Shown: one piece after another, positions 12,801 to 58,329 of the stretch
How positions within the stretch are numbered: the first letter of the stretch is position 1
Layout of the letters: each line of letters begins with the position of its first letter
From: Cetorhinus maximus
Lineage: Eukaryota
Direction: 5' to 3'
Length of the DNA stretch: 64,000 nucleotides
Assembly (NCBI RefSeq): GCF_964194155.1
Contig: NC_135893.1
Coordinates: 54,436,001-54,500,000, forward strand
Notes under the pieces: generated by a model
Told to the model about the DNA's origin: nothing
Seen by the model: the letters and a program-made list of their open reading frames with translations, nothing else
Databases searched by the model: none
Translations under genes and position numbers: made by a program

Positions 12801-15800
12801 AGAGCTGGGCCTGCATAAGGCTCCAAATACCATGCAAAAAAGTTAACATTTCTCATACAGTAAAATATATATTCTGAAAACAGCTAGTGCAACAGCACAC
12901 AGAGCCTCACCCTTGTGTATACAGCTTCTCCGCTATCCTCATAGTCTCCTTTGCATTGATCTTCAGCTTCCTTGAAACCAACTTCTCCAGTTCCTGTTTT
13001 ATAAACAGAATTTGTTCTTTAAAATTCAAATTCCAGTCCTTATTAAGATCATTCAGGTACTTTCTGCTAACAACCAATCCTTGCATGTAGTAAATGGCCA
13101 CAAAAGGCTTCTTCCAGGCAAAGGCAGAGATGAAGCATTAAGTGGAGAAAGATTGGGGAAGGTAACCAAAAACAAATTTAAAAGGTGCTTTTGAAGGAGA
13201 CAGAGAGGACATACAGGATCAATGTTAAAAAACCCTCATGTTCAGTCTGTCATGTGTTGTGCCAGTCTGTACATTCATAACAATCACCAATGACAGATAT
13301 CTCATGTTTTGTTTGAGTTTTCAGATACTAACCAAAATGTACACTCCATAATTAACCAGCTGAGTACTATCATGCTTCAACATACAATGGAGAACAAACT
13401 CACCAAACCCTTTATACTCTTGTAGCCTGATGAAATTATTGAGAATTTTGATAACTTTTCAAAGCTTGAGCTTGATAAAGAAAAGGCAGGAGTCTTGGGG
13501 CTCAGTTATAAACCATTTCTCTGCAGCGATTGGAGTGTGTGGGTATTGAGGCAGGGTCAAACTCAGCTGTGGTTACCCCTCCCTGGATCTTCAGAACAGG
13601 GAAGCACACGGTCCTTCCCTCCTAATGTCACTGAATCCTCGCTTGCCTAATGTCCCATAGCTGCCAACTGTGCTCTAAGTTTACACAATGGTCAATATTG
13701 AAACATGAGCTTCAACAGTGAGTGTTGGCCATGGAGGTCATTTCTAATTCTCATTGAACATCCTAGGACTTTTGTCAGGGGTCCCTGGACAGTGACCGGG
13801 AGTGCTAGTTCATCTCTCCCTTCTAACCCAGACACAGCAAGGTGAAAATACTGGCCTGGCTGAGATCAGCTAACCTGGCACAGACCAGGGGTCAAAAGCT
13901 GGAATTTTCCTGGTTTGCATGTCACTACATAAACCCGTTGAGTTAAAGTAGCAGGTAGCATTCTGTTATAAATAACCTTAAAAAGCATAGAATGACGGCA
14001 TTCAATATAAAAACATTAAAACAGAAACTAACATCTGAAACTCATGCTGCTGCAGCACGTCACAACCATATTTCGATACAGGCCCATTCTTTTTTTCCAA
14101 AAAAACATTGTTAATCACGATAGCAGGTTTTTTTTAAACAATAGAACTTGTCCTACATCCAGATACTCACCACAGTATCGAGGGGTAAAGGTCTCCATTT
14201 GCTCTTTGGTTTAGTGAAGACATCAAGTACAGTTGCAACCGGATCCTATGATCAGCAAAGAAAAGATATCAAGGGAGCATTCAAAAAGCATACAAAATCT
14301 TTACAAAACTGAGGTGCTAATTATTTTTTTCTGGATTTACTTAAATAACATCCTGTGCAACTAACAGTTGAGAGGCTGTGAGTGAAATATTATCCTATTA
14401 ACTGGGTTTCACTCACAGTCCTTTCACCAACCCCTACCTCTACAGAATAGGCTTCCCAAGAGCCACAAGCTCAACCACACAAAACTGTTTCACTCAGGGG
14501 TCGGAGATAATTCAATCACATTTACGCATCCAGTTCCCATTTTGTTGAATCCTATTTTCCTTCATCCACCTATCCAAACTAAGCCAGAATGTTTGGAGTT
14601 TCTGCCTCAAACACAATGGGAATTTCACAATTGTGTGTGAAGATTTATCTCTTCCACTGTTCTAAATCTCTTGCATTTAATCTTGTCTCTATTGCTTCTC
14701 GTTCTAGGCCTTTCAATGACTGGAAACAGTTTTTTTCTATCTAACCTGTCCCATCCCTTCAGAATTTTAAACACTTCTATTATAATTGTGTTATTCTATC
14801 AAGAAAGACCCAATTATTAAAGTTTTTCTTCAGGCAGCATTCTAATGAATCTGCAATTTACCGTCTGACAAATCTCAATATCATTCCAATAAGGTGGAGC
14901 CCGATACACAAAGAGGTCTAATTAAGGTTAATACAAGCTCATCATTACCTCTGTGTTCATACTCTGCACCCTTAAGATAAAACCTAGAATTTCATTTGTT
15001 TCCATTCTGATGAAAGGTCATCAAGCTGAAACATTATGTCTTTTTCTTCCTCCACAGATGCTTCCTGAGCTGCTAAAAATTTCCAGCATTTTCTATCATT
15101 ACTTCTATTTATTTTTCTATATTAGTTTCTGTATTTAATTTTTCCACAGCCATATCACCTCGAGCTATCTTTAATATCCTGTGAAGCTGTTCCCCAAATC
15201 CCACAGCACTATTTCGATTCACACACAATTACTGATGATAGATTTTTTAAACCAAACTGCATCTCCTTGCACTCAAGCATATTGAATGCCATCTGACACT
15301 TTTTAGACAAGTCCTCAATCTTATCAACATCGCTTTGCAGCTTCCTTTGCTCTTTTAAAGAATTAATTCTACCTATTTTTGCATCATCTGTACTCCCTCT
15401 GAGCCTATATCCAAATCATTAATAGTGAATAGAAGTAGTCCCAGAACAGAACCCCATGGGACACCACAACCCATTTCCAACTACAGTGAAATATAACCTT
15501 TAAAAACTTCTCTCTATTTCCTCCCTCCCAGCCAATTTTTAATCCAGTTTTCTATCCTCCTCCTACTTCCAAATATTTTAGGAATTCAGGAGAATCAGAA
15601 TGAAATACGTGTTCACCTCCATGCAGATCTGGTAAAGTACAAGGCATGCTGTATGGTTGAAGAGGCGATGTCTTTTCCAGTTAAATTCTACGTTTCCATC
15701 TTCAGTCTCATGGGTAACTGAAAAGCAAAACTCCTGGCTGATATCTGGCACATCTGGCATGAAAAAAGTCCACAACAAAGACTGGACCCTGATCACCCAC

Positions 15801-25234: not shown

Positions 25235-26051
25235 ACCGAACTGGAGTCAGGCCCAGTCGAGGGCTCGGGCCTGGTTACCATGGCGTCCCCTCAAAAGTCG
25301 CGCCACCCTTACCCGCCATTTAGCGCTGTCCGTGACACCAAACGTGCGCGTGCCCTGGGAGATGGCCGAGCAACCACAGGAACCCGCCCACTTGTGATTG
25401 ACAGCCGCTCACCTGCAGCTGATATCTGGGTGCTGTACGTCCAGGTCACTGTCAATAAACACACTCCCATATTTTTCAAAGGGGTTTGCGGCCCGTGTCA
25501 CATAAACAAAATAAAAATAAAAGGTGAAATAGAAAAAGAAGTTCAGGTGTTCGCAATCTGAACTAAAAACAGAAAACACAAGGGCCAAAAATAAAGAAAT
25601 AGCCAACGTTTCGGTTGACAAAAGGTCGCAGACCTAAAACGTTAATGTTGTTTCTATCTCCACAGGTGCTGCCTGATCTGCAGCATTTTCAACTTTTTAT
25701 TTCAGATCTCCAGCATCGGGGGGACTTTGGTCTTCCAAAAATATTAGTCCTCGACATCATATGTTGTTGTAACTGATCACTGTCTACTGGTTTTACCCCT
25801 GCACACTATCTGTGTTATGCATAACTAATTGTGAGAAAACGATTATTCAGGTTGTATCACAAAATGGTTGAGAAATACTGAAACGAAGATTCTAGGGTTA
25901 ATTATAAATCGAAGTGATTGTAGTTTGGCAGCAGTTGGTTATTTTGGCTGTGTTGAGTCGCCGCTTCCCTGCTTGCAGTGTCAGGCGGAACTATTGAGCC
26001 AGTGCACTGGGTGTCGGGGGAAGAGGGTGGGCCGGATGTGTTGCCGTAGAA
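25235..26051. promoter_or_regulatory. Putative bidirectional promoter region between TOP3A and UQCC4
   Basis: Divergent start codons are 817 bp apart, with CpG-rich flanks at both ends. YY1-like AAATGGCGG at ~25313-25321 (minus), E-box-like CACTTG/CACCTG, and X-box-like GTTACCATGG. No transcription start data available. Confidence 0.6.
25548..25717. mobile_element. Degenerate inverted pair of PLE 3'-end fragments (hammerhead region)
   Basis: AATCTGAACTAAAAACAGAAAA...AACGTTTCGG followed by AGGTCGCAGACCTAAAACGTTAA...CCACAGGTGCTGCC...TTTCAGATCTCCAGCATC. Confidence 0.6.
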
Positions 26052-28570
26052 ATGAGGATGATGGCGGCCAGTGTGGGCCTTGTGCGGGCTCTCGGGATCC
26101 CTTCACTTTCAACCCCACGCCGGTTGGGAGTAACTTTCGCCGGCTTCGTGGGACAGAGGTGCGTTGATTATGAGCTCCGGGGGAAGGCTTGGCGCCGTGG
26201 GGTTGTGTTAGATTGGGGATCGTTGTCTATGCTGCATGACTCTCATCAGCCTTCAGTTACAGCCTACCATGACTCCCAAGACCTTGGGAGCGTTACTCAT
26301 ACAGTAGAAATTCCAAATTGGGGTTAGTGGGCATTAAGTACAGGAAGTTAATACTGGCTGATTTGATCTTTTTGTTTAAACCTTTGAAAGAAAAATGAAT
26401 GGTCACTGTATGCTTTTGCAACCTATACCCAACATCATGATATTATCAGAGACCTTGGAACTGCGATTTGGTTAAAGCTCGTTCCTTTTCCCTGTTGTTG
26501 CGTGACTCATAAACCCCTCAGTTACCTTTTTGTAAATTATTTTCATCGTGTACTGTTTGGCGACGGAAGGTTGACAATATAACCACTTCAGGCAGTGCTG
26601 TTTTTGCAAGATTCAGAGATTCCATACATATACTTTGCCACATTGCAAGTCCAAGTCAGTGGATGCAAACATTGCAGGAATTTTAAAAGACCTGTTCACT
26701 TGCAGGCAGAAAGAAATACAGAGCTCAACGTTTCAGTTTTAAAGTCCTAGGAAAAAATGAGTTAGACGGTGAAACGAGTCTTGAACTCAGCACAGTGTAA
26801 GGCAGGAAGATGGTATTTGAGAGTCTTTTTCCCCATGCACAGTGATAGTAACGTTTGATTAATTTCTAGTGGCACCTAGCAAAATTTTGAAGCTAAATGG
26901 GATCAGTTAAGTTAAAAAAAATCTGGAGCTAAGAGATTGCTTCATTATGCTGGGCCAAAATTTGAACATTTTTTGTCTGTGGATTAATTAGCATGGCCGG
27001 GAAATTCCTTGGAGTTGCTCCTGCAAATCTCCAAGTTAACATTTTTTCCTCACTGGTCACAATATATAGAGTTATTGTCACAGACTTGAGCTACAGAGAA
27101 TTTTTATTACAATCCAGCAAGTGCCCTTTTAAAAGGATTATGTGGAATTGGATAAAGGGGGTATAATCTCAAACTTGCTGATCACACATCATGAGCACCA
27201 TCAGATGATGTGGTTCAGATCAGGAACTGTAGCAAGAACTTAAAGCACTATTCACTCTATCTGAAGGTTGGCAACTTTGTGAAATCTTCCCTCTCCTGTA
27301 AATGTCATATTTTTAATCAATTGCTGTACTTATTGTTGAGGGAGACCACTGCTGAAGTTATGTCTGGGAGCACCAGTCACCTTCCTGTACCTTATTCAAA
27401 TAACTATTGCTTGTGCATGAATTTCAATAGTGAGTATTGACAAACTAGTAAACTTTAGCAGTCATTCATGGGGGTTGGGGTGTAAGAGTAAGGACATCTT
27501 TCTACAATTTATAAAAGCCTTTGGTGAGGCTAAACCTAGAGGACTGTAGAGATTTGGTTCCCGCACCTCGCCTTGGAAAAGATATTTCCTGGGGTGAGAG
27601 GGTTGTCATACCAGGAGAGATTGAATAGAATGGACTTGTATTCTCTGAATTTAGAAGAATGGAAGATGATTTCATTGTCACATAGAAAATTCTTGAGACT
27701 CTTGACAGGTTAGATATGTTATCCCTGGTGGGAAGTCTAGAGCAGGAGGTCGTAGTCTCAGGATAAAGGGTTGACCATTTAGAGAGAGGAGGAGAAATTT
27801 CTACGGTCAGAGGGTTGTGAATCTTTGGAGTTCCCTACCCAAGGGGGCTGTGGATGCTCAGCTGATGAGTATATTCAAGATTGAGATGGATAGGATTTTT
27901 GGGCACTAAGGGAATCAAGGGTTATTGGGATTGGGTGAAAAAGTGGAGTTGTACTAGAAGTTCAGCCATGATCTTATTGATTGGCGGAACAGGCTTGAGG
28001 GACCACATGGCCTACTTCTGCCCCTATTACTCATGTTTTTATTCTAATCCAGTCTGACCCTGACTCTAGCATGTAGCTTTGTATCTGTTCTATTGGTTAA
28101 TGATCGAGTCTTAGAACCATCTTTAGGAGAAGGGGAGAAAATGAACGTGATTTGTGTTCTAGTGTAGTCTAACCTACAGCTCTGGTCTGCCTCTAACTGT
28201 TAGAACTTTTCTCAGGAACAACAATGCAGCAAAAGCTTCCTTCTCTACAACTCCGGGTGATGACAAATCTTCACCAAAGGATAACAAAAGCAATAATGGT
28301 GATGGAACCTTAAAATTTAGCACCAGCAAGGCAAGCTATCGTGTTTGGACAGTGAACAAGTCCCTGGGCAGTGATTACCAGAACACCCGGTGGAAGGTTC
28401 TTTCTCTGAGCCTTGCTGGAATTGCATTTGTAGTCTGGTGTTTCCTACGGAAAGAAACTGAAATTGATAGAACACTGGAACAGACATTGCTTGACCATTT
28501 GCCTGATTTTGAGCAGCCTACAGCTGAACCAGAGGAGCTTGCCAAGCAAAGAAACACAACACAAAGGTAA
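26052..28570 (+). CDS. UQCC4: CCSMST1-family mitochondrial protein / ubiquinol-cytochrome c reductase complex assembly factor 4 (C16orf91). Exons 26052-26158 and 28216-28570 (alternative acceptor at 28204)
   Basis: Exon 1 encodes an Arg-rich, acid-free presequence-like MRMMAASVGLVRALG...GQR, with donor GTGCGT in phase 2. Exon 2 continues in frame and encodes LKFSTSKASYRVWTVNKSLGSDYQNTRWKVLSLSLAGIAFVVWCFLRKETEID, resembling the human motif FSSSKA..W.V....G...RPWWKVL...WCYLREE plus a TM helix. The start could be 26052, 26058 or 26061. Confidence 0.87.
27460..28035 (+). mobile_element. CR1 LINE 3' fragment in the UQCC4 intron
   Basis: LYKALVR-like remnant and a CR1 3' UTR ending ATGGCCTACTTCTGCCCCT. 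Confidence 0.8.
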
Positions 28571-28680
28571 AATACTGCTGCTGGACATCTGAAATGAAAA
28601 CAGAAAAATACTGAAACAGAATCTGTAGAGAAAGAAACAAAGTCAACAGTTCAGATCAATGATCTTCTGTCAGTTTGGAG
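28563..28680 (-). mobile_element. PLE 3'-end remnant overlapping the UQCC4 stop codon
   Basis: AAATACTGC...GCTGGACATCTGAAATGAAAACAGAAAA is the reverse complement of the PLE tail seen at 57620-57680. Confidence 0.6.
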
Positions 28681-29971: not shown

Positions 29972-32900
29972 TGTCTGATACTCACTTCCACCTGCTAGAC
30001 TTATTCTTGGCTTCTCATAGGATCTTAGTCTAGTCCTACAAAATGATAGAGCGTCAAATTGGACCTTGTTTCAAGTTTAAAATATCAAGCAGTTTACAAA
30101 AGATTAACAGGCTAATAAGTAACAGTCATATAGTAAAATTTACTGTGTTTTTGCACAGCTCAGATTATTACCTCAAAAGGCACCTGAATCTGTGCTGACT
30201 GATTTATTGTGAATAATCATGATACTGCACAAGCTTTGAATGTGATCAATGGTAGAGTCATTGCCTGTGGCCTTTTTTGTTGCCCTTTGTGAACATGGAC
30301 GTTGACCTGCATTTTCACCATGGGGCCAGTAACACACACTTCTAATGGTTGCTTCTGACATGACATCTCTCCAGTCTTGCAGGATTCTTGGTAAATGCAA
30401 TCCCTGAGTCTTCATTGGTTTTCAGCCCATTTTGCTGGCCTAAGTCTTCAGACTTATTTACACATAATTAATTTTACTTCAGTTATCTCTGCAGTTGAGT
30501 CCATGACTTTTTTTGGAACTGACCTCAATTCCAAAGAAGTTATTTGGATTCAAAACATTAACTCTATTTCTCTCTCCACAGGTGCTGCCAGACCTACTGA
30601 GTTTTTCCAGCACTTCATTTTTAATTTCACCAGGATGATACCTGAATTCCAAGGGTTAAATTAAGATATTACACAAACTGGGGTTGTATTTCCCGGAATT
30701 TAGATGGTTAAGTGGTGATTTCATCAAAGTTTTCAAATTATTAAGAGTAACAGTTTCTCTCTATCCACCCTATTTCCACTTGGGCAGTCTAGGACTGAAG
30801 GGGGGGAAAACAGTCTAAAGTTAGAGTTGGACTTAAGGAGTGAAATTAAGAAAATGTTTACACAAAGGGTGGTAGCAGTTTGGAACACACTCCTGTGAAC
30901 AATTGGCTCTAGATAATAAATTTTAAATCTGGAATTGATAAATATTAAGGTAGAATGCAAATATGGATAAATGGAGTTCAACTGCAAATCAACCATATTG
31001 ATTGAATGGTGGCAGAACAGACTCAATGGATAAATGGTCTATCTCACTCTTAAAAGTTGTGGTATCATTCTATTCCTCTTTCTCATGTTTATCTAGCTTT
31101 GTCTTTAAATGCATCTATATACTATTTATCTTATCTAATGAGTGAGTGAGTTCCACATCTTGTCACTCTCCAGGTAAAAATGTTTTTCATGAATTCTCTG
31201 GTCTTGCCTGCAAAGTAGAAACATCTAGTCTACATCTGCCCTATCAAACCCTTTCATAAGCTTAAAGGCCTATCAGGACAATTCCATAATCTTTTGAGAG
31301 ACTGCCTGTTCAAATGTTTGTGATAGGCATAAAACTATCTTCCCAGTGCCTCTGTTTTATGATGTGGAGACAAACTGTTCAGAATCCAAGTGTTGTCTCA
31401 CTAAGGTCTAACTCAACTTCTGCTTTCCAATTCTATCCTAAATGAACCTATGTTCTATTTGCTTTGATCTTAACTTGCTGTGAAACTTTTAATGATTTAT
31501 GCCTGCACTCACCCATTGTTCCATCCCATTTAGACATTTGCTTTCATCAGTACATGGTCTCCTTTTTCTGCAAAAACTAGAGGAGAAGTGCTGAGTGGAT
31601 GATTCATTTTGGCCTCTTCCAGAGGTCCCCAGCAGTTCAGCCAATTTGATGCACTCCATGTGAAAAAATGGCTGAAAGCACAGGATACTGCAAAGGCCAC
31701 TCACCATTGCGACTGACTTCAGTCACTAGGTCAAAATCCTAAAACACCCTCCAACAGAACTGTGGATGTACTTACACTTATCGTGTCCATGGACAGTCTA
31801 TACATGGCCCAGCCAGAGCACTAAATGGACTGCATCAGTTCAAGGCAGTTACCACCACCACCTTAAAGGGCAATTAGGGATGGGCAATAAATGCTGACCT
31901 AGCCAGCGACATCCACATGAATGAAAAAATGTGCTGTCACATATACCTATATTTGAGTTTACATCAATCTAGCACTCATTCTACATCCTTAATGTCTTCC
32001 TCTTAGTTAATACAGAAAACTATCTTTCCCAAGTTGGTGTCACCTGCAAATTTAGAGTTAGTTCAAAATGCAGACCCCAGTCTATAATTGATAAACTGCA
32101 TCACCATTTACCAATCTGAAAAACTGCTAACTTAGTTGACATTATCACCAGCTGCCTAATCATTCTGCTACTTGTCCCAACTCCACTTTGAATCTTGTCA
32201 AGCCTGCTTTGTAGTACCTCAGGACTTCTCGAAAATCTATTACACCAATTGCATCACCCCTTTCAACTGTTACCCTTGCTGGTAGCTGCACTTCACCCAC
32301 CTAATCTTAAGCTCTGGAATTCCAGCCCACACCCACCAAACATCTCTACTGTTCTCCTTTAGCATGTTCCTTCAAAGTGCCTTGGCCTGTTTCACTACAT
32401 TAAAAAGGCACTATATAAATGCAACTTGGAGTACATGTCCACTCTCTATGCTTATGGGCCAAGGTCAGCCTCGGACAAAAATTTATTTACATATTGCAAT
32501 ATTTACCAATTGCTTTAAGATGCAGTGTTTTGGAAATGCTACTTACATGCATATACTACACAAATTAAGGATCTGTGGAAAATGGAGTCCACAAGACTTG
32601 TGCCAATCTCATCTCCAAAAGATGGAGGTGGATGAGAGGTGCGAGGTCAAGGATTATCTCCTACCATCACTTGGAATGGACTCCAGTAGCCTTGATGAGC
32701 TTTGCCATTGTAGGGAAATATTCGATAACTATGTCCACCAATAAAACTGAAAAGCAAGGGGAAAAGCTAGACAGCATGAGGGACCTGTGACCTCAGTTTA
32801 CAGTCAGTCTTTAACTGATGCAATAATTGCATTATATGGAGTACATTCATTTGTTTGATGCTCAGTATGACACTTACCCACATTTGCAAAACAGGTCTCA

Positions 32901-36150: not shown

Positions 36151-38826
36151 TTGCTCCCTCTTGGATTCTGCCCAGTTCCTCCTTCACGTTCATGAACATA
36201 AACAAGAGAATTATTGCAGCAGTCGAGGGGTGATGTTCGTATAATTTAACCTGCTCAACGCAAACATCATCTGTCTCTTTCTCTCTCCAAAACCAATGAC
36301 TGCCCCGTATCCCCCTTTTTTTTTAAACATTCAAAAGCCAGGTTATTTTAAAATTCCCTTTGCAATTTAAATATATTTACCTATTCATCCTCTGCATAAG
36401 AGAGTACTTTTGTTTTTGATGATGGCGGTGAGGCAGTTTTCGTGTTTAATTGCGTGTGTTCTCAGGAGTTGTCCTCAAGCCACCTCTCGCCCACTCGTTT
36501 TCCTCCCACTGTATTTTCATTCAGCTTCTAACTGGTTTGGGGTTGCACTGAATACGTTTGTGTGGTTTCAATGAATCTTTAGAAAACATTTTCGTCATTT
36601 ATAGGTGGTTTACACATTTACTGCCAAGCGGAACTGACCATGAAACTCGTGAATATCGTTAGCATGAATCATGACGAACAGCACGCATGGTTTATTTTCG
36701 GAAACCATACATCCCTCACTTGGATCTTATTTGTGTGAAACGTGACTATTTTAAAACGGGTTATCAAGAGATTTAATTTTTGGTGAGCTCGGCCAAATCT
36801 TTAATGAGTTGTGGAGAAGGATGTGGTACTGCCTAAAATACGCAAAAGGTAATACAATTTTAATGTAAGAAAAAAATTGCAGACTTTCAGGAATACATAG
36901 CATGTAGATACATTAAAATTAAATTATTCGTGGAATTTTACAATATAGAAAGAGACCACTCGTCTAAAGAAACACCAAAAATTTGGCCGAGCCCACCAAG
37001 AAACAGCATTTTTTGTTAGATTTATTTTATTACCTGATCTGACTGCTTTGTCCAATTAAAGGAATACAAGAAGGCCATTAGTCCCAAAACACCTGTACAG
37101 TCACGGCACCTCTTTGCTCCTCCACTTTCGTCTTTCGACTTTTACCAGATGCTGTAGAGAGGGATGGGTAGATCAGAGGTCTGCTGCATGCTAGGGTGGC
37201 CTTGTAAGGTAGCCTGTGGTGCCCACCAGTACACTTGGGGCCTACCACAATCAGTGGTCACTACAAGAGATAGTATGTGTTATAAGTAAATGTGCAATGA
37301 CATTGTGTCTTATTTGGTAGGATTAATTTTGTTTTCCTGGTTGCTTTAAGAAAATGAGTTTAATTGGACTGCATATTAATTGCTATGCTAGTAGGGCCTT
37401 AATGTGCAATTCTTGTTTGTTGACGCTGACTCAATCCCATTATATATAAAACAGCATCACAACTTATTCAAAGGCAAATACTGTGGATGCTGGAAATCTG
37501 AAATAAAACCATAAAATGCTGGAATGCAAGCCAGGTAGCATCTGTGAAGAAAGGTGCAAAGTTAATGTTACAAATCAATTACTTTTTCAGGTCATGTTAA
37601 CTTTGCTTCAAAAGTAATTCAGTGGTTGGGAAGTGCTTTGGGATGTCCTGAAGATGTGACATGATGCAATATAAATCTAGTTCATTTTATAATGTGGAAT
37701 TGAGCTATGCAGCCCAGGTACTGGGTTGGAAATTTGATAATACCGTATTGAAGTAGGAGTTCCCAGTATAGGTGGTAATAAGACCATTGGGCTTTGACTT
37801 GGGCAGGGAGAAGATGAGGATTTAGATTGCAATGTTTGAGGATGTTCCAGATTTATTTTTCCCTCCACTTGCTTAAGGTGCTGACTGCAGACGAGATGAG
37901 TGGGATTTGGTGACAGGCTTAATACTGCAGCAGAGTGACCATGTTTTATGTGCAAAGCAGTCCAGTCAGCTATTCCACCATTTTGTCTTCATTTAAATTG
38001 CACAAACTTGGAGTCACTGGCTGAATCGGAGGATTGAACTGGCAGTGATCTGTATGACTGACTTTCACGCCAGCCAGTACAGAATCGCAACCCTCCGGTA
38101 TTTTCTGTGCACCTAGGCTGACCTCAGTAACCCTCGGCACTGGATGCCTCATTGTCTCCAGTCATTCTCCGCAGTAATTGCAGATATACTGAAAGCCAAT
38201 GGTATATGTGAACATAATAAATCATTCACTGTGCCCGGGGCGGCTTGTAATTATGGCTCTATCGTACTTCATCTTGTGTTACATGACATCAACAGCAGAA
38301 GATAAAAGAGGAAACTCAATTCTACCATTAATCACACCTCGTGGAGATTGGCAGGTCCTCTCTGATGAGGCAATCATGAGTAGTGTCTGATTTTTGTGTG
38401 GACAGTTTACAGGTGACACTCCAGATGAAACTGAAAGCTAGACCCGGATGAAAGCACAAAAGAATAGGCAAAATCCTTCTGGAGAAGCTGGGAGGATATA
38501 GTGACCTCACTATATTACTATTAGGAAAGGGATGGCGTACTGTAATGAGAAGACTGTGATCAGAGGGCACCTACCCTGAGAAGCTGAAGGCTCATTTTGC
38601 AACTTATTATGGTAGAGGCCACTTGGAAGGCCAGAGCAGAGAGGATGTGTTGGCTGAGGGGAAAGTGAGTTCTAGGAACCAATGCTCAAAATGATGTGAT
38701 ATCGAACTTAAAGTCCTGTTCTTTGCTTCCAATTTATCTCCTTCCAAACCCCCTTCTGTCTCTTGCACATCAGTGCTTTCTCACTGGTCAGTGTTCTCCC
38801 GCTCAGTGTTTTCTACAGTCACTGTT

Positions 38827-47160: not shown

Positions 47161-49292
47161 CATCTGGAGATCTTCCTCCCACAGCTTCCAACCTGATAGT
47201 CGCCCAATCTTGGACGGCCCGCTTCTACCTCCTACCCAAAATCCACAAACAGGACTGTCCCGGCAGACCGATCGTGTCAGCCTGTTCCTGCCCCACGGAA
47301 CTCATTTCTCGTTATCTTGGCTCCCTTCTCTCTCCCCTTGTCCAGTCCCTTCCCACTTACATCCGTGATTCCTCTGACACCTTACGTCACGTCAATAATT
47401 TCCAGTTCCCTGGCTCCAACCGCCTCCTCTTCACCATGGACATCCAAACCCTCTATACCTCCATCCCCTACCAGGATGGTCTGAGGGCTCTCAGCTTCTT
47501 CCTTGAACAGAGGCCCAAACAATCGTCATCCACCACTACTCTCCTCCGTCTGGCTGAACTTGTTCTCACACTGAACAATTTCTCCTTTAACTCCTCTCAC
47601 TTCCTCCAAATAAAAGGTGTGGCTATGGGTACTTGCATGGGCCCCAGTTATGCCTGTCTCTTTATGGGGTATGTGGAACATTCCTTGTTCCAGTCCTACT
47701 CTGGCCCCCTCCCACAACTCTTTCTCCGGTACATCGATGATTACTTCGGTGCGGCTTCATGCTCTCATCGGCACCTGGAAAAATTTATTAATTTTGCTTC
47801 CAATCTCCACCCCTCCATCATTTTCACATGGTCCATCTCTGACACTTCCCTTCCCTTCCTTGACCTCTCTGTCTCAATTTCTGGTGATAGACTGTCCACC
47901 AATATCCATTACAAGCCTACCGACTCCCACAGCTACCTCGACTACAGCTCCTCACACCCCGCTTCCTGTAAGGACTCCATCCCATTCTCTCAGTTCCTTC
48001 GCCTCCGTCGCATCTGTTCTGATGATGCTACCTTCAAAAACAGTTCCTCTAACATGTCCTCCTTCTTCGTTAACCAAGGTTTTCCACCCACGGTAGTTGA
48101 CAGGGCCCTCAACCGTGTCCGGCCCATCTCCCGCACATCCGCCCTCACGCCTTCTCCTCCCTCCCAGAAACATGATAGGGTCCCCCTTGTCCTCACTTAT
48201 CACCCCACCAGCCTCTGCATTCAAAGGATCATCCTCCGCCATTTCCGCCAACTCCAGCATGATGCCACCACCAAACACATCTTCCCTTCACCACCCCCCC
48301 GGCGGCATTCCGTAGGGATCGTTCCCTCCGTGACACCCTGGTCCACTCCTCCATCACCCCCTCCTCCTCAACCCCCACCTACAGCACCTCCCCATGCATA
48401 CGCAAAATATGCAACACCTGCCCTTCACTTCCTCTCTCCTCACTGTCCAAGGGCCCAAACACTCCTTTCAAGTGAAGCAGCATTTCACTTGCATTTCCCC
48501 TAACTTAGTCTACTGCATTCGTTGCTCCCAATGCGGTTTCCTCTACATTGGAGAGACCAAACGCAGATTGGGCGGCCGCTTTGCAGAACACCTTCGGTCT
48601 GTCTGCAAGAATGACCCAGACCTCCCTGTCGCTTGCCATTTTAACACTCCACCCTGCTCTCTTGCCCACATGTCTGTCCTTGGCTTGCTGCATTGTTCCA
48701 GTGAAGCTCGACGCAAACTGGAGGAACAGCACCTCATCTTCCGACTAGGCACTTTACAGCCTTCCGGACTGAATATTGAGTTCAAGAACTTTAGATCTTG
48801 AACTCCCTCCTCCATCCCCACCCCCTTTCCGTTTCTTCCCCCTCCCTTTTGTTTTTTCCAATAATTTATATAGATTTTTCTTTTCCCACCTATTTCCATT
48901 ATTTTTAAACCTATACCTTTTATGCCCTTTTAGTCTTATTTCGCCCCACCCCCACCAGAACTATCTGTACCTTGCCTGTCCTGCTATCCATTCTTAATTA
49001 GCACATTCTTTTAGATAATATCACCACCTTCAACACCTCTTTGTTCTTTTGTCTGTGACATCTTTTGGTTATCCGCTCCTATCACTGCTTGCTTGTCCCT
49101 ACAACCACCCCCCCCACTTCTCCCCCCACCCCCCCCCCATCCCCCCCACCACCACCACCTTAAACCAGCTTATATTTCACCCCTCTCCTATCTTTACTTA
49201 GTTCTGTTGTAGGGTCATGAGGACTCGAAACGTCAACTCCGCTGATGCTGCCAAACCTGCTGAGTTTTTCCAGGTATTTCTGTTTTTGTTTT
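47159..49292 (+). mobile_element. Penelope-like retroelement, Neptune-type, 5'-truncated, with open RT core and a 3' end carrying a hammerhead motif
   Basis: ORF 47124-48503 holds the RT motifs (YIDD). The GIY-YIG domain ([22 protein letters not shown]) is in 48394-48801. The 3' UTR is shared with the other copies. Confidence 0.95.
49200..49238 (+). ncRNA. Minimal type-I hammerhead ribozyme-like motif (core variant, with a further A9 mutation)
   Basis: AGTT-CTGTTGT-A-GGGTC-ATGAG-GACTC-GAA-ACGT-C-AACT: stem I AGTT/AACT, stem II GGGTC/GACTC, palindromic stem III ACGT, GUC site. Confidence 0.65.
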
Positions 49293-50200: not shown

Positions 50201-52440
50201 TCCATGCCCCCATCCCTACCCCTACCCCCCAAACCCCTCCCTGCCCTGGGAACTTAATTCATGTCAAGTGATTTGAAGCTTTGCTGGAAGATCTGGTAAA
50301 GCATGGTGTAAATGCAAATCTGGACCAGCAGAGGGAGTTGCCCTGGAGGAAAGCCTGGGACTGCAAGGAAATACTGTATCCAGGGACAACATACCTCACT
50401 CAGTTTCCTTCCCACAGACACAGAGTGTGTTTAGTGGTTGAGGGTCTAGAATGAGGAGCTATTGATATGAGATTACACAATCACAGAATCTTTCCAGTGC
50501 AGAAGGAGGCCATTTGGCCCATCGAGTCTGCACTGTTTCTCTGCAAGAGCATTTGACCTAGTTCCACTCCCATGCCTTATCCCCGTAACGTTGCACATTC
50601 TTTCTTTTCAAATAGCCGTCCAATTCTCTTTTGAATACCTCGATTGAACCTGCCTCCACCTCAGGAAGTTCGTTCCAGACTCCAACCACCTTCTGGGTGG
50701 AAAATCTTTTCCCCATTAAATTAAAACAGATGAAATAGAATCATGCAATCATAGAATTATACAGCACAGAAAGAGCTATCTGGCTCATCGAATCTGCACC
50801 GAATCTTTCAAGAAGCAACCCACATCCCACTATCCCCCCTTATACCTGCAATTTTTCCTCTTTCAAGTATTTATCAGCTCCCTTCTGACAGTTACAATTG
50901 AATCTGTTTCCACCACCTTATCAGGCAGTACATTCCAAATCCTAACCACTCAATCTATAAATAGGTTTTCCTCATATCGCTTCTGGTTCTTTTGTCAATC
51001 TGTTTACTTTAACCCTATTAAAGATCTAGAACAGAGGGCAGGAGAAACATTTTCATAGCTATGAAACTGTGGAATTCAACCCCAGGGTTTGTGGTTGGAA
51101 CAGAAACTGTCTAACATTCCAGATCAGATTGGATAGGTGGGACAAAGGAGAAGGGGAGGAGGGATATGGGAACAGAATGGGTAAATGTGATTAGAACTAT
51201 TTGCTCATGTGACATGGACTGGTTGTACCACATGGCCTGTTTTATGTTGTAGCTTTTCTTTCTATGCGGATTTTAAAGCATGATAAAGAGCAAAATCTTA
51301 AGGAGAAAGGGATAATAAAAATATTTTTTTAATCAGGGGAGGAGCCAGAAGAGAGGCCCGGGAGTAACGCTAGGCTTGGGGATTGACAGTGGGCCTGAGA
51401 ATGAAAGAAACAAAAGGATAAAAATAATAAAATCAATTTGAAACATAGAAAATAGGAGCAGGAGTAGGCCATTCAGCCCTTCAAACCTGCTCCACCATTC
51501 AATATGATCATAGCTGATCCTCTATCTCAACGCCATATTCCTGATCTCTCCATACCTCTTGATGCCTTGAGTTCAGAAATCTATCTATTTCCTTCTTAAA
51601 TATATTCAGTGACTTGGCCTCCACAGCATCCTGTGGTAGAGAATTCCACAGGTTCATCACCCTCTGAGTGAAGAAGTTTCTCCTCATCTCAGTCCTAGAT
51701 GGCCGACCTCGTATCCTTAGACTGTGAACCCTTGTTTTAGAAACCCCCAGCCAGAGGAAACATCATCCCTTTAACCAGAGTGTCCATCCCTGTCAGAATT
51801 TTGTACGTTTCAATGAGATCCCCTTTCATTCTTCTAAACATGTAAATACAAGCCTAGTTGGCCTAATCTCTCCTTATATGACAATCCTGAAACCCCAGGA
51901 ATGAGTCTGGTGAACCTTTGCTGCACTCCCTCTATGGCAAGTATATCCTTTCTTAGGTAAGGAGACCAAAACTGCGCACACTACTCCAGGTGGGGTCTCA
52001 CCAAGGCCCTTTAAAGCTGCAGTAAGACATCCTTGCTCCTGTACTCAAGTTTTCTTGTAATGAAGGCCAACATACCAGTTGTCTTCTTAACTGCTTACTG
52101 CATCTGCATGCTTGCTTTCAGTGATCAGTGTACAATGACACCCAGGTCTCTTTGTACATCAACATTTCCCAATCTATCACCATTTAAATAATACTCTGCC
52201 ATTCTGTTTTTACCTACCAAAGTGAATAACTTCACACTTATCCACGTTATACTGCATTTGGCTTGTGTTTGCCCGCTCACTCGACCTGTCTAGATTGCCT
52301 TGAAGCCTCTCAACACCCTCCTCGCGGCTCACATTCCCACTTAGTTTTGTGTCGTCAGCAAACTTGGAAATATTACAAAACAAAAACAGAATTACCTGGA
52401 AAAACTCAGCAGGTCTGGCAGCATCGGCGGAGAAGGAAAG

Positions 52441-52479
52441 AGTCGCCGTTTCGAGTCCACATGACCCTTCAACAGAACT
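52441..52479 (-). ncRNA. Minimal hammerhead-like motif, left arm (cleavage triplet mutated to GGC)
   Basis: AGTT-CTGTTGA-A-GGGTC-ATGTG-GACTC-GAAAC-GGC-GACT. Confidence 0.6.
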
Positions 52480-55400
52480 GAGTATAGTTAGGAGAGGGGT
52501 GAAATATAAGCTGGTTTAAGGTGGGGGGCGGGGGGCGGGGGGAGAGAAGTTGAGGGTGGGGTGGTTGTAGGGACAAGCAAGCAGTGATAGGAGCAGATAA
52601 TCAAAAGATGTCACAGACAAAAGGATCAAAGAGGTGTTGAAGGTGGTGATATTATCTAAGAAAAGTGCTAATTAAGAATGGTTGGCAGGACACTCAAGGT
52701 ACAGCTCTAGTGGGAGTGGGGTGGAAAGACTGACAAGGTATTAGTTGTAGATTTAAAAATAATGGAAATAGGTGGGAAAAGAAAAATCTATATAAATTAT
52801 TGGAAAAAACAAAAGGGAGGGGGAAGAAACGGGGTGGGGATGAAGGGAGGGAGTTTAAGATCTAAAGTTGTTGAATTCAATATTCAGCCCGGAAGGCTGT
52901 AAAGTGCCTAGTCGGAAGATGAGGTGCTGTTCCTCCAGTTTGCATTGGGCTTCACTGGAACAATGCAGCAAGCCAAGGACAGACATGCGGGCAAGAGAGC
53001 AGGGTGGAGTGTTAAAATAGCAAGCGACAGGGAGGTTTGGGTCTTTCTTGCGGACAGACCGCAGGTGTTCTGCAAAGCGGTCGCCCAGTTTGCGTTTGGT
53101 CTCTCCAATGTAGAGGAGACCGCATTGGGAGCAACGAATGCAGTAGACTAAGTTAGGGGAAATGCAAGTGAAATGTTGTTTCACTTGAAAGGAGTGTTTG
53201 GGCCCTTGGACGGTGAGGAGAGAGGAAGTGAAGGGGCAGGTGTTGCATCTTCTGCTTGGGCATGGGGAGGTGCCATAGGTGGGGGTTGAGGAGTAGGGGG
53301 TGATGGAGGAGTGGACCAGGGTGTCCCGGAGGGAACGATCCCTACGGGAATGCCGCTGGGGGGGGGTGAAGGGAAGATGTGTTTGGTGGTGGCATCATGC
53401 TGGAGTTGGCGGAAAAGGCAGAGGATGATCCTTTGAATGCGGAGGCTGGTGGGGTGATAAGTGAGGACAAGGGGGACCCTATCATGTTTCTGGGAGGGAG
53501 GAGAAGGCGTGAGGGCGGATGCGCGGGAGATGGGCCGGACACAGTTGAGGGCCCTGTCAACGACCGTGGGTGGAAAACCTCGGTTAAGGAAGAAGGAGGA
53601 CATGTCAGAGGAACTGTTTTTGAAGGTAGCATCGTCAGAACAGATGCGACGGAGGCGAAGGAACTGAGAGAATAGGATGGAGTCCTTACAGGAAGCGGGG
53701 TGTGAGGAACTGTAGTCGAGGTAGCTGTGGGAGTCGGTAGGCTTGTAATGGATATTGGTGGACAGTCTATCATCAGAAATTGAGACAGAGAGGTCAAGGA
53801 AGGGAAGGGAAGTGTCAGAGATGGACCATGTGAAAATGATGGAGGGGTGGAAATTGGAAGCAAAATTAATAAATTTTTCCAGGTCCCGACGAGAGCATGA
53901 AGCAGCACCGAAGTAATCATCGATGTACCGGAGAAAGAGTTGTGGGACGGGGCCGGAGTAGGACTGGAACAAGGAATGTTCCACATACCCTATAAAGAGA
54001 CAGGCATAGCTGGGGCCCATGCGGGTACCCATAGCCACACCTTTTATTTGGAGGAAGTGAGAGGAGTTAAAGGAGAAATTGTTCAGTGTGAGAACAAGTT
54101 CAGCCAGACGGAGGAGAGTAGTGGTGGATGGGGATTGTTGGGGCCTCTGTTCAAGGAAGAAGCTAAGGGCCCTCAGACCATCCTGGTGGGGGATGGAGGT
54201 GTAGAGGGATTGGACATCCATGGTGAAGAGGAAGCAGTTGGGGCCAGGGAACTGGAAATTGTTGATGTAACGTAAAGTGTCAGAGGAAACACGGATGTAG
54301 GTGGGAAGGGACTGGACAAGGGGAGAGAGAAAGGAGTCAAGATAACGAGAAATGAGTTCCGTGGGGCAGGAACAGGCTGACACGATCGGTCTGCCGGGAC
54401 GGTTCTGTTTGTGGATTCTGGGTAGGAGGTAGAAGCGGGCCGTCCGAGGTTGGGCGACTATCAGGTTGGAAGCTGTGGGAGGAAGATCTCCAGAGGAGGT
54501 GAGGTCAGTGACAGTCCTGGAAACAATGGCTTGATGTTCCGTGGTGGGGTCATGGTCCAGGAAGAGGTAGGAGGAAGTGTCTGCGATTTGAGGCTCAGCC
54601 TGCGCGAGGTAGAGATCAGTGCGCCAGACAACAACAGCACCACCCTTGTCAGTGGGTTTGATGACAATGTTGGGGTTGGATCTGAGAGAACGGAGTGCAG
54701 TAAGTTCAGAGAGAGACAGATTAGAATGGGTGAGAGGACCAGATGGTCGTTGACAGGGTCCTCAACCATCTCCGGCCCATCTCCCGCGCATCTGCCCTCA
54801 CGCCTTCTCCTCCCTCCCAGAAACATGATAGGGTCCCCCTTGTCCTCACTTATCACCCCACCAGCCTCCGCATTCAAAGGATCATCCTCCGCCTTTTCCG
54901 CCAACTCCAGCACGATGCCACCACCAAACACATCTTCCCTTCACCCCCCCGGCGGCATTCCGTAGGGATCGTTCCCTCTGGGACACCCTGGTCCACTCCT
55001 CCATCACCCCCTACTCCTCAACCCCCACCTATGGCACCTCCCCATGCCCAAGCAGAAGATGCAACACCTGCCCCTTCACTTCCTCTCTCCTCACCGTCCA
55101 AGGGCCCAAACACTCCTTTCAAGTGAAGCAACATTTCACTTGCATTTCCCCTAACTTAGTCTACTGCATTCGTTGCTCCCAATGCGGTCTCCTCTACATT
55201 GGAGAGACCAAACGCAAACTGGGCGACCGCTTTGCAGAACACCTGCGGTCTGTCCGCAAGAAAGACCCAAACCTCCCTGTCGCTTGCTATTTTAACACTC
55301 CACCCTGCTCTCTTGCCCACATGTCTGTCCTTGGCTTGCTGCATTGTTCCAGTGAAGCCCAACGCAAACTGGAGGAACAGCACCTCATCTTCCGACTAGG

Positions 55401-55820
55401 CACTTTATAGCCTTCCGGGCTGAATATTGAATTCAACAACTTTAGATCTTAAACTCCCTCCCTTCATCCCCACCCCGTTTCTTCCCCCTCCCTTTTGTTT
55501 TTTTCAATAATTTATATAAATTTTTCTTTTCCCACCTATTTCCATTATTTTTAAATCTACAACTAATACCTTGTCAGTCTTTCCACCCCGCCCCCACTAG
55601 AGCTGTACCTTGAATGTCCTGCCATCCATTCTTAATTAGCACTTTTCTTAGATAATATCACCACCTTCAACACCTCTTTGATCCTTTTGTCTGTGACATC
55701 TTTTGATTATCTGCTCCTATCACTGCTTGCTTGTCCCTACAACCACCCCACCCTCAACTTCTCTCACCCCGCCCCCCACCTTAAACCAGCTTATATTTCA
55801 CCCCTCTCCTAACTATACTC

Positions 55821-55859
55821 AGTTCTGTTGAAGGGTCATGTGGACTCGAAACATCGACT
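55821..55859 (+). ncRNA. Minimal hammerhead-like motif, right arm (stem III CpG mutated)
   Basis: AGTT-CTGTTGA-A-GGGTC-ATGTG-GACTC-GAAAC-ATC-GACT. Confidence 0.6.
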
Positions 55860-56934
55860 CTTTTCTTCTCCGCCGATGCTGCCAGACCTGCTAAGTTTTT
55901 CCAGGTAATTCTGTTTTTGTTTTGGATTTCCAGCATCCACAGTAGTTTTTTGTTGGAAATATTACATTTGGTTCCCTCATCCAAATCATTGATATATATT
56001 GTGAATAACTGGGACCCAAGCACTGATCCCTCCATTACCCCATTAGTCACCGCCTGCCACTCCAAAAAACCCCATTTATTCCTATTCTCTTTCCTGTCTG
56101 CTAAGCAATTCTCAATCAATGCTAATATATTACCCCCAATCCTATGTGCTTTAATTTTACACGCTAACCTGAAAATCCAAATACACCACATTCACTAGTT
56201 CTCCCTTATCTATTCTGCTAGTTACGTCCTCAAAAAACTCCATTAGGTTTGTCAAACATGATTTCCCTTTCATGAACCCATGTTGACTTTGTCTAATCCC
56301 GTTGATATTTTCTAAGTGTCCTGTTATCATATCCTTTATAATAGACTCGAATATTTTCCCTACTATTAATGTTAGGCCAACTGGTCTGTAATTCACTGTT
56401 TTCTCTCTCTCTCTCTCTCTCCCCTCCCCCCCCACCTTTTTAATAGTGGGGTTACATTTGCCACCCTCCAATTTGCCGGGACTGTTCCAGAATCTACAGA
56501 ATTTTGGAAAAGGACAGCCAGAGCACCCACTATTTCCATGGCCACCTCCTTTAATACCCTGGGATGTAGATTATCAGGCCCTGGAGATTTTTCAGCTTTC
56601 AGCCCCATTAATTTCTCCAGCACTATTGTTTTAGCAATACTAATTTCCTTCAATTCCTCCTTCTCACTAGACCCTTGGTTCCCTAGCATTTCTGGGAAGT
56701 TATTTGTCTTCCTCCGTGAAGACAGAACTAAAGTAGTTGTTTGAGTGCTATGCCATTTCCTTGTTCTCTATTGTAAATTCTTCCGTTTCGGACTGTAGGG
56801 GACCTACATTTGTCTTCACTAATCTTTTTCTTTTTACATACTTATAGAAGCTTTTACAGTCTGTTTTTATGTTTCTTTCAAGTTTACTCTCATACTCTAG
56901 TTTTCCCTTCTTAATCAATCTCTTGGTCCTGATT

Positions 56935-57233
56935 TGATTCTGCTGTTGCCATTCACACCTCCTCTAGACCCATCTTTTGTTTCTTTACTTATCACATTGC
57001 TACTAATTTCTCCTGCCTTCCAGCCTATCACAGACTCTCCTTTTCTCTCCTCCTCATCTTTTCCCACCTTTGTATTTGCTTAAAACTTGTTACATTTCTA
57101 ACTTTTTCCAGTTCTATTGATCTGAAATGTTAACTCTGGTTCTCTCTCCACTGATGCTGCTTGTCCGGCTGTGTATTTCCAACATTTTCTGTTTCTATTT
57201 TGGATTTTCAGCATTCACAGTATTTTGCTTTTC
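56935..57233 (+). mobile_element. PLE 3' UTR and tail fragment (older subfamily)
   Basis: CAGTTCT...GATCTGAAATGTTAACTCTGGTTCTCTCTCCACTGATGCTGC...CAGTATTTTGCTTTT. Confidence 0.65.
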
Positions 57234-57504
57234 TATAATTAAGCACATGTTTGGAAAGGAAAAGTAGTAGTCGGTGAGTGAGATAGTGCTTCCTACACTA
57301 GCTGTCAGTGGAAAAAGAGATATGATGAATCAACTCATAAGAGACTCTACATTATTACACTTCACTCTGGAATTTTAGTGACTGGTGATCATGCTACTGG
57401 AGTTTGATGGGTGCTTGCTGCAAACAGCTTATCCGTGAATACCTGAAATACAAATTGTTTGATTTTTTTGCCAAAGCCACTTAAAAAGTGTAGATATATG
57501 AATC

Positions 57505-57680
57505 AAAAATAAAAACAAAAAATGCTGAAAAACTCAGCAGGTCTGGCAGCATCAGTGGAGAGAGAAACATAGTTCACGTTAACTTTATTTCCCTCTCCAC
57601 AGATGCTGCAGACCTGCTGAGTTTTTCTAGCATTTTTGTTTTTCTTTCAGATTTCCAGCATCTGCAGTATTTTGCTTTCT
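57505..57680. mobile_element. Miniature palindromic PLE-derived element
   Basis: Inverted arms of ~73 bp meet at ACGT (57576-57579). Flanked by GATATATGAATC and GATAGATGAAGC. Confidence 0.75.
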
Positions 57681-58329
57681 GATAGATGAAGCACCTCTAT
57701 CTAGGTGGACAGCTTAAAGAGCGTAAGTTGGCAAGTTCACAGATGTGACAGAAATGTTTATATTGATTACCTATTTGTGAGGAGACAGATCTAATAGTCC
57801 GAGATTGATAATCTATGGGTGTGGGAGGAGGGAGATCTGATCTTGTTCTGCATGAGTTGCATTGTTTCTCTGATGTAACATTATATCAGGAAAATGGGGC
57901 AACCAGTTTAATGCCTTTAAATCCTTCTGTAGTTGACAGCTGTATTTAATTGTGAAATATATATTTTATTTGCCTCAGTTAAGCTTTCAAAGTAAAGAGA
58001 GGTTTCTTTAGTGAATTTGTGTTTCTCCAGACTAGTGCAAACACTCCACTGATATTTGATTTCATGCATAACCTTCTCCTCACATATATGTTTGGTGCAA
58101 TTCACAAGCAAATTATTAAAGTTACAAGAGACTTATTAATTTTGTAATCAGTTTAAAGTACTGGTGAGAAATCAAGGGTTAACAATTGTAAGGTAGTGAA
58201 CTCTGCTGTGTTTGGTTTGTTTCTGTTTATAATTCTATCTGCTAATAAACCCGATTGATAGTTTGTATCCTGAGATCTGTGGTCTGTCAGAGCATTATTT
58301 ATCTGTCAATTGGAGGGACCAGAAAAATA

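What the first reader, a model, noticed from the sequence alone, without database searches (positions are those of the whole stretch)
57493..57692. Miniature loopless fold-back element built from the Penelope hammerhead region, with a probable TSD
Seen: two ~73-bp inverted arms (roughly 85% identical by eye) join with no spacer at ACGT (57576-57579). That ACGT is the self-complementary stem III and cleavage-site region of the PLE minimal hammerhead (GAAACGTTAAC). Only the right arm carries the extra ~28-nt tail (GATTTCCAGCATCTGCAGTATTTTGCTTT). The unit is flanked by a 10/12 direct repeat (GATATATGAATC / GATAGATGAAGC). This is the architecture of the 3.6-kb element at 52378-55952 reduced to ~176 bp. 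Known: PLEs carry minimal hammerheads with palindromic stem III and often insert as inverted structures. Inference: either a non-autonomous MITE-like hairpin retroelement whose axis is set by the ribozyme, or a large inverted insertion that collapsed at the 4-6-bp palindrome. If transcribed, it would form a long RNA hairpin.
Basis: partly seen in the sequence, partly recalled or inferred. Interest (0 to 1): 0.7.

Follow-up and report, generated by a model that had tools for sequence, protein, structure and literature searches.

The report
Head-to-head Penelope retrotransposon stub
This 176-base mirror-image repeat is one of over a thousand similar stubs of a Penelope-type jumping gene in this genome; its fold point in the ribozyme is a rare exception, because the halves of most stubs stop further upstream, at what is likely the start of the element's RNA, which suggests each stub was likely built on landing from two copies of one RNA end.

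Summary
The fold-back is real: arms are 67/78 identical, the tail is on one side only, and there is an 11/13 target duplication. It is the pLTR end of an autonomous Penelope-like element (PLE), one of at least 1,053 such palindromes genome-wide. The ribozyme does not set the axis: only 6 loci match this AACGTT junction, against 470 at an AGCT axis about 30 nt upstream. Arms pile up at +1..+5, just 5' of the hammerhead and 31 nt below a TATAAAA, likely the transcription start. About 6 of 100 arms end near the cleavage site. The unit has lost the catalytic core. It is not a propagating MITE: junctions are diverse, and one asymmetric junction faces the tail either way (20 vs 11). None of 171 palindromes has two tails, and the two arms share subfamily alleles. 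Best reading: both nicked target strands primed on one uncut RNA at its two start sites, and the two cDNAs were joined head to head. Later collapse of a longer centre is not excluded. The architecture is published; I did not find this mechanism in print. This scan already reached the same reading on other genomes.

The parts
57493..57505 (+). Left copy of target-site duplication (13 bp; the last base or two could also belong to the arm)
   Evidence: 11/13 match to 57681-57693; 14 of 1000 random pairs score as well; family TSDs mostly 14-15 bp
57507..57580 (-). Tail-less arm: inverted PLE pLTR end, family positions +30..+104
   Evidence: 70 identities, 4 mismatches, 1 gap to the family majority; family tail-less ends cluster at +99..+108
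57575..57580 (.). Junction: the self-complementary AACGTT hexamer of hammerhead stem III (here CACGTT), shared by both arms as a 6-bp microhomology; axis between 57577 and 57578
   Evidence: sequence; 6 loci genome-wide match this junction at <=1 mismatch
57576..57678 (+). Tailed arm: PLE pLTR end in sense, positions +31..+135; hammerhead core and stem II absent
   Evidence: 97 identities, 6 mismatches, 2 gaps; no CTGANGA
57648..57678 (+). PLE 'tail' (about 31 nt), on one arm only
   Evidence: a tail on exactly one arm in 133 of 140 and 31 of 31 palindromes
57681..57693 (+). Right copy of target-site duplication
52378..55952 (.). Related 3.6-kb inverted PLE insertion (sister subfamily): tail-less arm about 52378-54740 (-) with RT, tailed arm about 54741-55952 (+) with GIY-YIG; TSD 52364-52377 / 55953-55966
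   Evidence: its subfamily also forms about 450 short palindromes

Best explanation
The unit is a short head-to-head insertion of the end segment of an autonomous Penelope-like retrotransposon, with a one-sided tail and a target-site duplication, and it was likely built at this site from two reverse transcripts of one RNA that were likely joined at the self-complementary AACGTT hexamer. Shown: there are at least 1,053 such palindromes; arms mostly stop at +1..+5, just 5' of the hammerhead; one arm carries the tail and never both; the arms of a unit share alleles; junctions carry microhomology or filler. Inferred: +1 is the pLTR transcription start (TATAAAA at -31). The endonuclease makes a staggered cut of about 14 bp. 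One 3' end primes at the inner RT start (about +103, tail-less arm), the other at the outer start (about +137, tailed arm) on the same uncut RNA, the second RT displacing the first cDNA. Both cDNAs run towards the RNA 5' end and are end-joined. In this unit both stopped about 30 nt early, or were trimmed, and met at the 6-bp palindrome. The ribozyme supplied sequence microhomology, not a cut.
For: Palindrome counts by centre length: 55, 483, 463, 52. Of the first 100 arms that reach +5, 53 end in +5..+1, about 43 run on into the upstream pLTR and about 4 end in -1..-9; there is no shared sequence beyond +1 (by eye). Of 100 arms reaching +38, about 6 end in +38..+30 (by eye). Two tails in 0 of 140 and 0 of 31 palindromes, although 18 of 37 unpartnered arms are tailed (p 1e-15 at an expected share of 0.22). 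Cross-arm discordance at dimorphic sites is 0.19, 0.09 and 0.09, against 0.50, 0.31 and 0.46 if independent. One asymmetric junction faces the tail 20 vs 11. Overlap >=3 nt in 65% of filler-free junctions against 34% in a blunt-join simulation; fillers >=3 nt in 38% against 1%. Long copies join the arm to GIY-YIG coding DNA 80-90% identical to the 3.6-kb element. In vitro, a PLE nicks and extends both strands, starts at two internal sites that bound the tail, and does not need ribozyme cleavage (PMC11167929).
Against: No RNA 5' end was measured, and the D. virilis Penelope intron ends at this same place (PMC4209133), so +1..+3 could be a 3' splice site. Units with both arms reaching <=+5 are less diverged (0.045, n=20, vs 0.061, n=92, p=0.03; Spearman p=0.056), as later collapse would give. 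Stem II position +14 is discordant in 13 of 39 units and 8 of 50 (by eye), above the 0.09 background, which a strict one-template model does not explain. For this unit the joint can lie anywhere in the hexamer, including a parse in which one arm starts exactly at the cut site. Samples are the first-listed, exact-anchor (young) copies, mostly from contigs C1-C2.
Confidence: 0.65

Rival explanations
1. The insertion arrived as a longer inverted unit (for example the common AGCT-axis form, or a kilobase form) and later lost its centre by deletion between the two AACGTT copies, which act as direct repeats.
For: The hexamer is a natural deletion repeat; full-centre units are slightly less diverged (p=0.03); the arms are about 6% from the family majority and the insertion is shared with a relative whose flanks differ at 11 of about 300 bases, so it is old.
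Against: The trend is weak (rho -0.18, p=0.056); fillers and arms ending at many points are equally expected at insertion; it does not explain the one-sided tail or the +1 wall, which still need the insertion model.
Confidence: 0.2
2. Self-priming (snap-back) of a single product makes the second arm, as proposed for palindromic PLE junctions in PMC3846280.
For: It gives identical arms and palindromic junctions (AGCT 470 loci, AACGTT 6).
Against: A snap-back from the tailed cDNA requires the tailed arm to reach furthest 5', but it is the shorter arm in 74 units and the longer in 48. A sister subfamily whose 5' end (AGTT) is not palindromic makes about 450 palindromes at the same wall, with the asymmetric junction in both orientations. 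Tail-less ends also occur in unpartnered copies.
Confidence: 0.07
3. One arm was copied from hammerhead-cleaved RNA (5' end at +36) and annealed to the other cDNA through the stem III palindrome, so here the ribozyme did fix the axis.
For: The 6-bp overlap allows this parse; the same junction recurs at 6 further matches plus L015.
Against: No pile-up of ends at the cut: 1 of 100 arms at +36; 0.9% of tailed and 2.4% of tail-less arms in +34..+38. Recurrence is expected from a 6-bp microhomology alone.
Confidence: 0.05
4. A non-autonomous MITE-like hairpin master of about 176 bp that spreads as a unit.
For: A uniform outer structure with distinct TSDs.
Against: This junction is 1 of 50 listed in its size class and far under 1% of 1,053. 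The other loci with it differ in arm alleles and length. Both allele classes form palindromes. Junction orientation is not fixed to the tail (sister subfamily).
Confidence: 0.02

Closest known systems
Endonuclease-positive Penelope-like elements with an inverted 5'-truncated copy (inverted pLTR), one-sided 30-40-bp tail and TSD (PMC3846280, passages; PMC8557442, passages)
   Same: Head-to-head arms, tail on one arm, TSD, palindrome at the junction, TATA and Inr-like motifs in the pLTR.
   Different: No ORF sequence at all; about 176 bp; at least 1,053 counted; both arms stop at or below a fixed point 5' of the ribozyme. The papers leave the mechanism open or propose self-priming.
Poseidon element of Anolis (PAc) in vitro (PMC11167929, main text parts 1-2 of 4)
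   Same: Two internal RT start sites bounding the tail; both strands nicked and extended; ribozyme cleavage not needed; predicted dimer.
   Different: [quoted passage not shown]
Minimal hammerheads of metazoan PLEs (PMC4209133, parts 1-2 of 4)
   Same: The family motif has CUGANGA, an extra base before stem II, and palindromic stem III; pairs of min-HHRs 100-700 bp apart on opposite strands were noted in Schistosoma.
   Different: This unit has lost the core and stem II.
Non-LTR retrozymes (bioRxiv 10.64898/2026.07.22.740005, abstract and Results part 1 of 2)
   Same: Short, ORF-less, pLTR-related sequences.
   Different: Retrozymes are head-to-tail units with a whole ribozyme; these are head-to-head, made one at a time.
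L1 twin priming
   Same: Both target strands prime on one RNA; inversion joined by microhomology.
   Different: L1 arms copy non-overlapping RNA parts; here both arms copy the same about 100 nt.

Membership tests
EN+ Penelope-like element insertion | Arm sequence belongs to an element with RT plus C-terminal GIY-YIG | tested here: met
   Long copies L143 and L129 link the arm to coding DNA 80-90% identical to the 3.6-kb element, which hits RVT_1 (below gathering score) and GIY-YIG. The clade was not determined.
EN+ Penelope-like element insertion | Inverted 5'-truncated copy with a 30-40-bp tail at one end | tested here: met
   This unit; 133 of 140 and 31 of 31 palindromes
EN+ Penelope-like element insertion | Target-site duplication | tested here: met
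   11/13 here, chance 14/1000; 92 of 140 in the family at score >=8, chance 5/1000
Minimal type I hammerhead ribozyme | CUGANGA core, stem II, GAAA, stem III | tested here: not met
   No CTGANGA on either strand of the unit; Rfam has no gathering-level hit in the window. The motif is present in longer family members.
Minimal type I hammerhead ribozyme | Self-cleavage | not testable with these tools
   Needs an in vitro assay of the family motif
MITE-like or unit-propagating non-autonomous element | Many copies sharing one internal structure and size | tested here: not met
   Junctions are scattered; 6 loci match this junction
MITE-like or unit-propagating non-autonomous element | Internal asymmetry fixed relative to the element's ends | tested here: not met
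   The asymmetric junction faces the tail 20 vs 11, tested on the sister subfamily only
Non-LTR retrozyme | Head-to-tail monomers bearing a whole hammerhead | tested here: not met
   Head-to-head, no core

The most novel reading that the evidence does not exclude
These stubs record the PLE insertion reaction: one RNP primes both nicked target strands on a single capped, uncut RNA at two fixed sites about 33 nt apart, copies the same 5' leader twice by strand displacement up to the transcription start, and joins the two cDNAs head to head. This would explain at once the inverted pLTR, the strictly one-sided tail and the TSD, and make 'strong-stop-like' leader copies a main product of PLE activity.
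Probability: 0.5. Interest if true: 0.7.

Novelty: new member of a known kind. Interest (0 to 1): 0.4.

Why it matters
The unit itself is a dead, old stub and needs no special function. The family matters because how PLEs form inverted ends and a one-sided tail is stated to be unresolved (PMC8557442). The counts here (0 of 171 two-tailed, shared alleles, a sharp 5' wall, junction orientation free of the tail) turn that into a specific prediction for the existing in vitro PLE system. They also indicate that the template is mostly uncut by the ribozyme. About a third of sampled arms sit in short palindromes (11 of 30), a large reservoir of potential hairpin RNA whose expression is untested.

Tried and rejected
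Ribozyme-set axis: rejected by junction counts and end maps. Rfam scan of the window: no hit, uninformative for minimal hammerheads. Empty site: none found. Contigs of two runs of a relative (X22, X23) run from both flanks into the arms, so the insertion is shared, but no listed contig bridges the centre. Expression of this locus: run X1 (RNA status guessed, other organism) has no cover on the flanks, which shows nothing either way; no small-RNA or raw-read run was listed, so the RNA 5' end and splicing at the wall stay unmeasured. Spliced exon 1 as the cause of the wall: no shared sequence beyond +1 (next base A4 C5 G6 T4 in 19 rows, by eye), so it is less likely, not excluded. An extra cap-derived base: no enrichment in those 19 rows. 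RT stalling at structure: the wall lies 5' of the last stem, so unlikely (inference). Two independent insertions: one TSD encloses both arms and the pattern is family-wide. A blind sample of 200 kb plus the window gave 26 arm hits, too few for junction statistics, so pattern-selected loci were used. Literature: searches listed no paper describing this mechanism; the library lacks most subscription papers, and I read no supplements (those of PMC11167929 map RT starts per strand and may bear on it). A sequence look-up in earlier findings gave nothing.

Full report
Observation. The structure is as described. The arms share 67 of 78 aligned bases and fold as one hairpin with z -13. The centre reads GTTCACGTTAAC with ACGT at 57576-57579. 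Only the right arm has the tail of about 31 nt. The flanks carry an 11/13 repeat that 14 of 1000 random pairs match. The unit holds no CTGANGA core on either strand: it keeps only the stem III/cleavage hexamer of the hammerhead.

What it belongs to. A genome search with the unit returned many fold-back relatives with their own TSDs but different centres. Long copies join the same arm to GIY-YIG coding DNA 80-90% identical to the neighbouring 3.6-kb element, whose frames hit RVT_1 (below the gathering score) and GIY-YIG. The arm is therefore the pLTR end of an autonomous PLE lineage. An exact 22-mer of the arm occurs 18,561 times. In the first 30 such arms, 11 lie in short palindromes (10 units) and one has a partner 533 nt away. 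Below, +1 is the A of AGCTCTGAAGA just 5' of the hammerhead core; the predicted cut follows +35.

Is the axis set by the ribozyme? With exact 17-mer anchors on both arms, palindromes number 55, 483, 463 and 52 for centres of 6-36, 37-67, 68-98 and 99-129 nt, 1,053 in all and a lower bound. This unit's type has an 18-nt centre. It is 1 of the 50 listed in the first class and matches 6 loci directly at <=1 mismatch, against 470 for a loopless AGCT axis at +1..+3. I parsed 140 of the 1,053 (25 of 55, 50 of 483, 50 of 463, 15 of 52; first-listed). Weighted by class, 62% have an arm ending at -2..+5, and only 0.9% of tailed and 2.4% of tail-less arms end at +34..+38. Among all arms, partnered or not, 53 of the first 100 that reach +5 end by +1, about 43 run on and about 4 end in -1..-9 (by eye). 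Only about 6 of the first 100 that reach +38 end by +30, one exactly at +36, and none with this fold-back (by eye). The ribozyme cut and stem III are thus minor end points.

What the wall is. Long copies show TATAAAA 31 nt before +1, and short copies share nothing beyond +1. A sister subfamily, that of the 3.6-kb element, makes about 450 palindromes ending at the homologous place, although its first bases are not palindromic. I infer a transcription start; TATA and Inr-like motifs in a pLTR are published (PMC3846280, passages). Against this, the D. virilis intron ends at the 5' side of helix I (PMC4209133) and the sequence here also resembles a 3' splice site. No RNA end was measured.

How the palindromes form. 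133 of 140 have one tail, 0 have two and 7 have none called; 92 have a TSD, mostly 14-15 bp. In the sister subfamily 31 of 31 have one tail. Since 18 of 37 unpartnered arms are tailed, independent choice of start site would give two tails in about a quarter of units. The arms of a unit share alleles at three dimorphic sites (discordance 0.19, 0.09, 0.09 vs 0.50, 0.31, 0.46; background 0.09), less so at +14 (13 of 39). Junctions show excess overlap (>=3 nt in 65% of 66 filler-free cases vs 34% simulated) or fillers (38% vs 1%; the simulation draws its ends from the observed calls, so it is approximate). The tailed arm is shorter in 74 units and longer in 48 (p=0.02), against snap-back from the tailed cDNA. 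A purified PLE nicks and extends both strands, starts at two internal sites that bound the tail, and works without ribozyme cleavage (PMC11167929). The simplest reading is that both target ends prime on one uncut RNA, one at each site, and the two cDNAs are end-joined. Strand displacement by the second RT is my inference; that PLE RT lacks RNase H is recalled.

This unit. Its arms are about 6% from the family majority. Contigs of a relative run from both flanks into the arms, so it is old and shared; none of the listed contigs bridges the centre. It met at AACGTT either at insertion or by later deletion. Units with complete centres are slightly less diverged (0.045 vs 0.061, p=0.03, 112 of 140 units usable), which keeps collapse open at about 0.2.

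Known and new. The architecture is the published PLE inverted pLTR with one-sided tail and TSD (PMC3846280, PMC8557442), and opposite-strand pairs of minimal hammerheads were noted in 2014. It is not a ribozyme, retrozyme or MITE by the tests above. Eight literature searches listed no paper with the coupled two-strand model; subscription papers and supplements were not seen. This scan's notes hold 146 findings with the same keywords in at least 29 genomes, and the eight shown give much the same reading. I had reached it before that call (notes 28, 36, 47, 56) and do not count those notes as support. One note reports a second pile-up at the cut site in another genome, which I do not see here.

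Verdict. Observation confirmed; interpretation partly supported; new member of a known kind; interest 0.4, owed to the family-level evidence on an open mechanism and not to this copy.

Noticed in passing
window 52378-55952: The 3.6-kb PLE has a longer tail-less arm (about 2.4 kb) than tailed arm (about 1.2 kb) and a perfect 14-bp TSD; its flanks translate to a KFADDTKL-bearing frame that I recall as typical of CR1-type LINE RT, so it likely sits inside another LINE.
   Followed up: partly
window 15029-15105, 25636-25717, 28563-28607, 30538-30629, 37470-37570, 49203-49291, 57125-57232: Further PLE pLTR-end copies of several subfamilies in the window, about one per 8 kb.
   Followed up: no
L122-L260 (unpartnered copies ending at -3..+5): Only 3 of 16 short solo copies show a TSD at score >=7, against 92 of 140 palindromes at >=8 (different search windows). 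A clean TSD may need both strands to prime.
   Followed up: partly
family position +14 (stem II), e.g. L163, L170, L171: A/G differs between the arms of one unit in 13 of 39 cases, mostly without a change at the other dimorphic sites; a mutable site or RNA editing, unexplained.
   Followed up: partly
L129, L143, L144 upstream of the arm; window 55790-55830 and 57080-57112: Three subfamilies each have a TATA-like word about 30 nt before the wall, and two have an Inr-like YYANWYY at it (consensus recalled); the same bases also read like a 3' splice site.
   Followed up: partly
L102-L116, L152, L157, L179: Junction fillers are often short templated repeats of the arm ends, like end-joining or RT jumps.
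   Followed up: no
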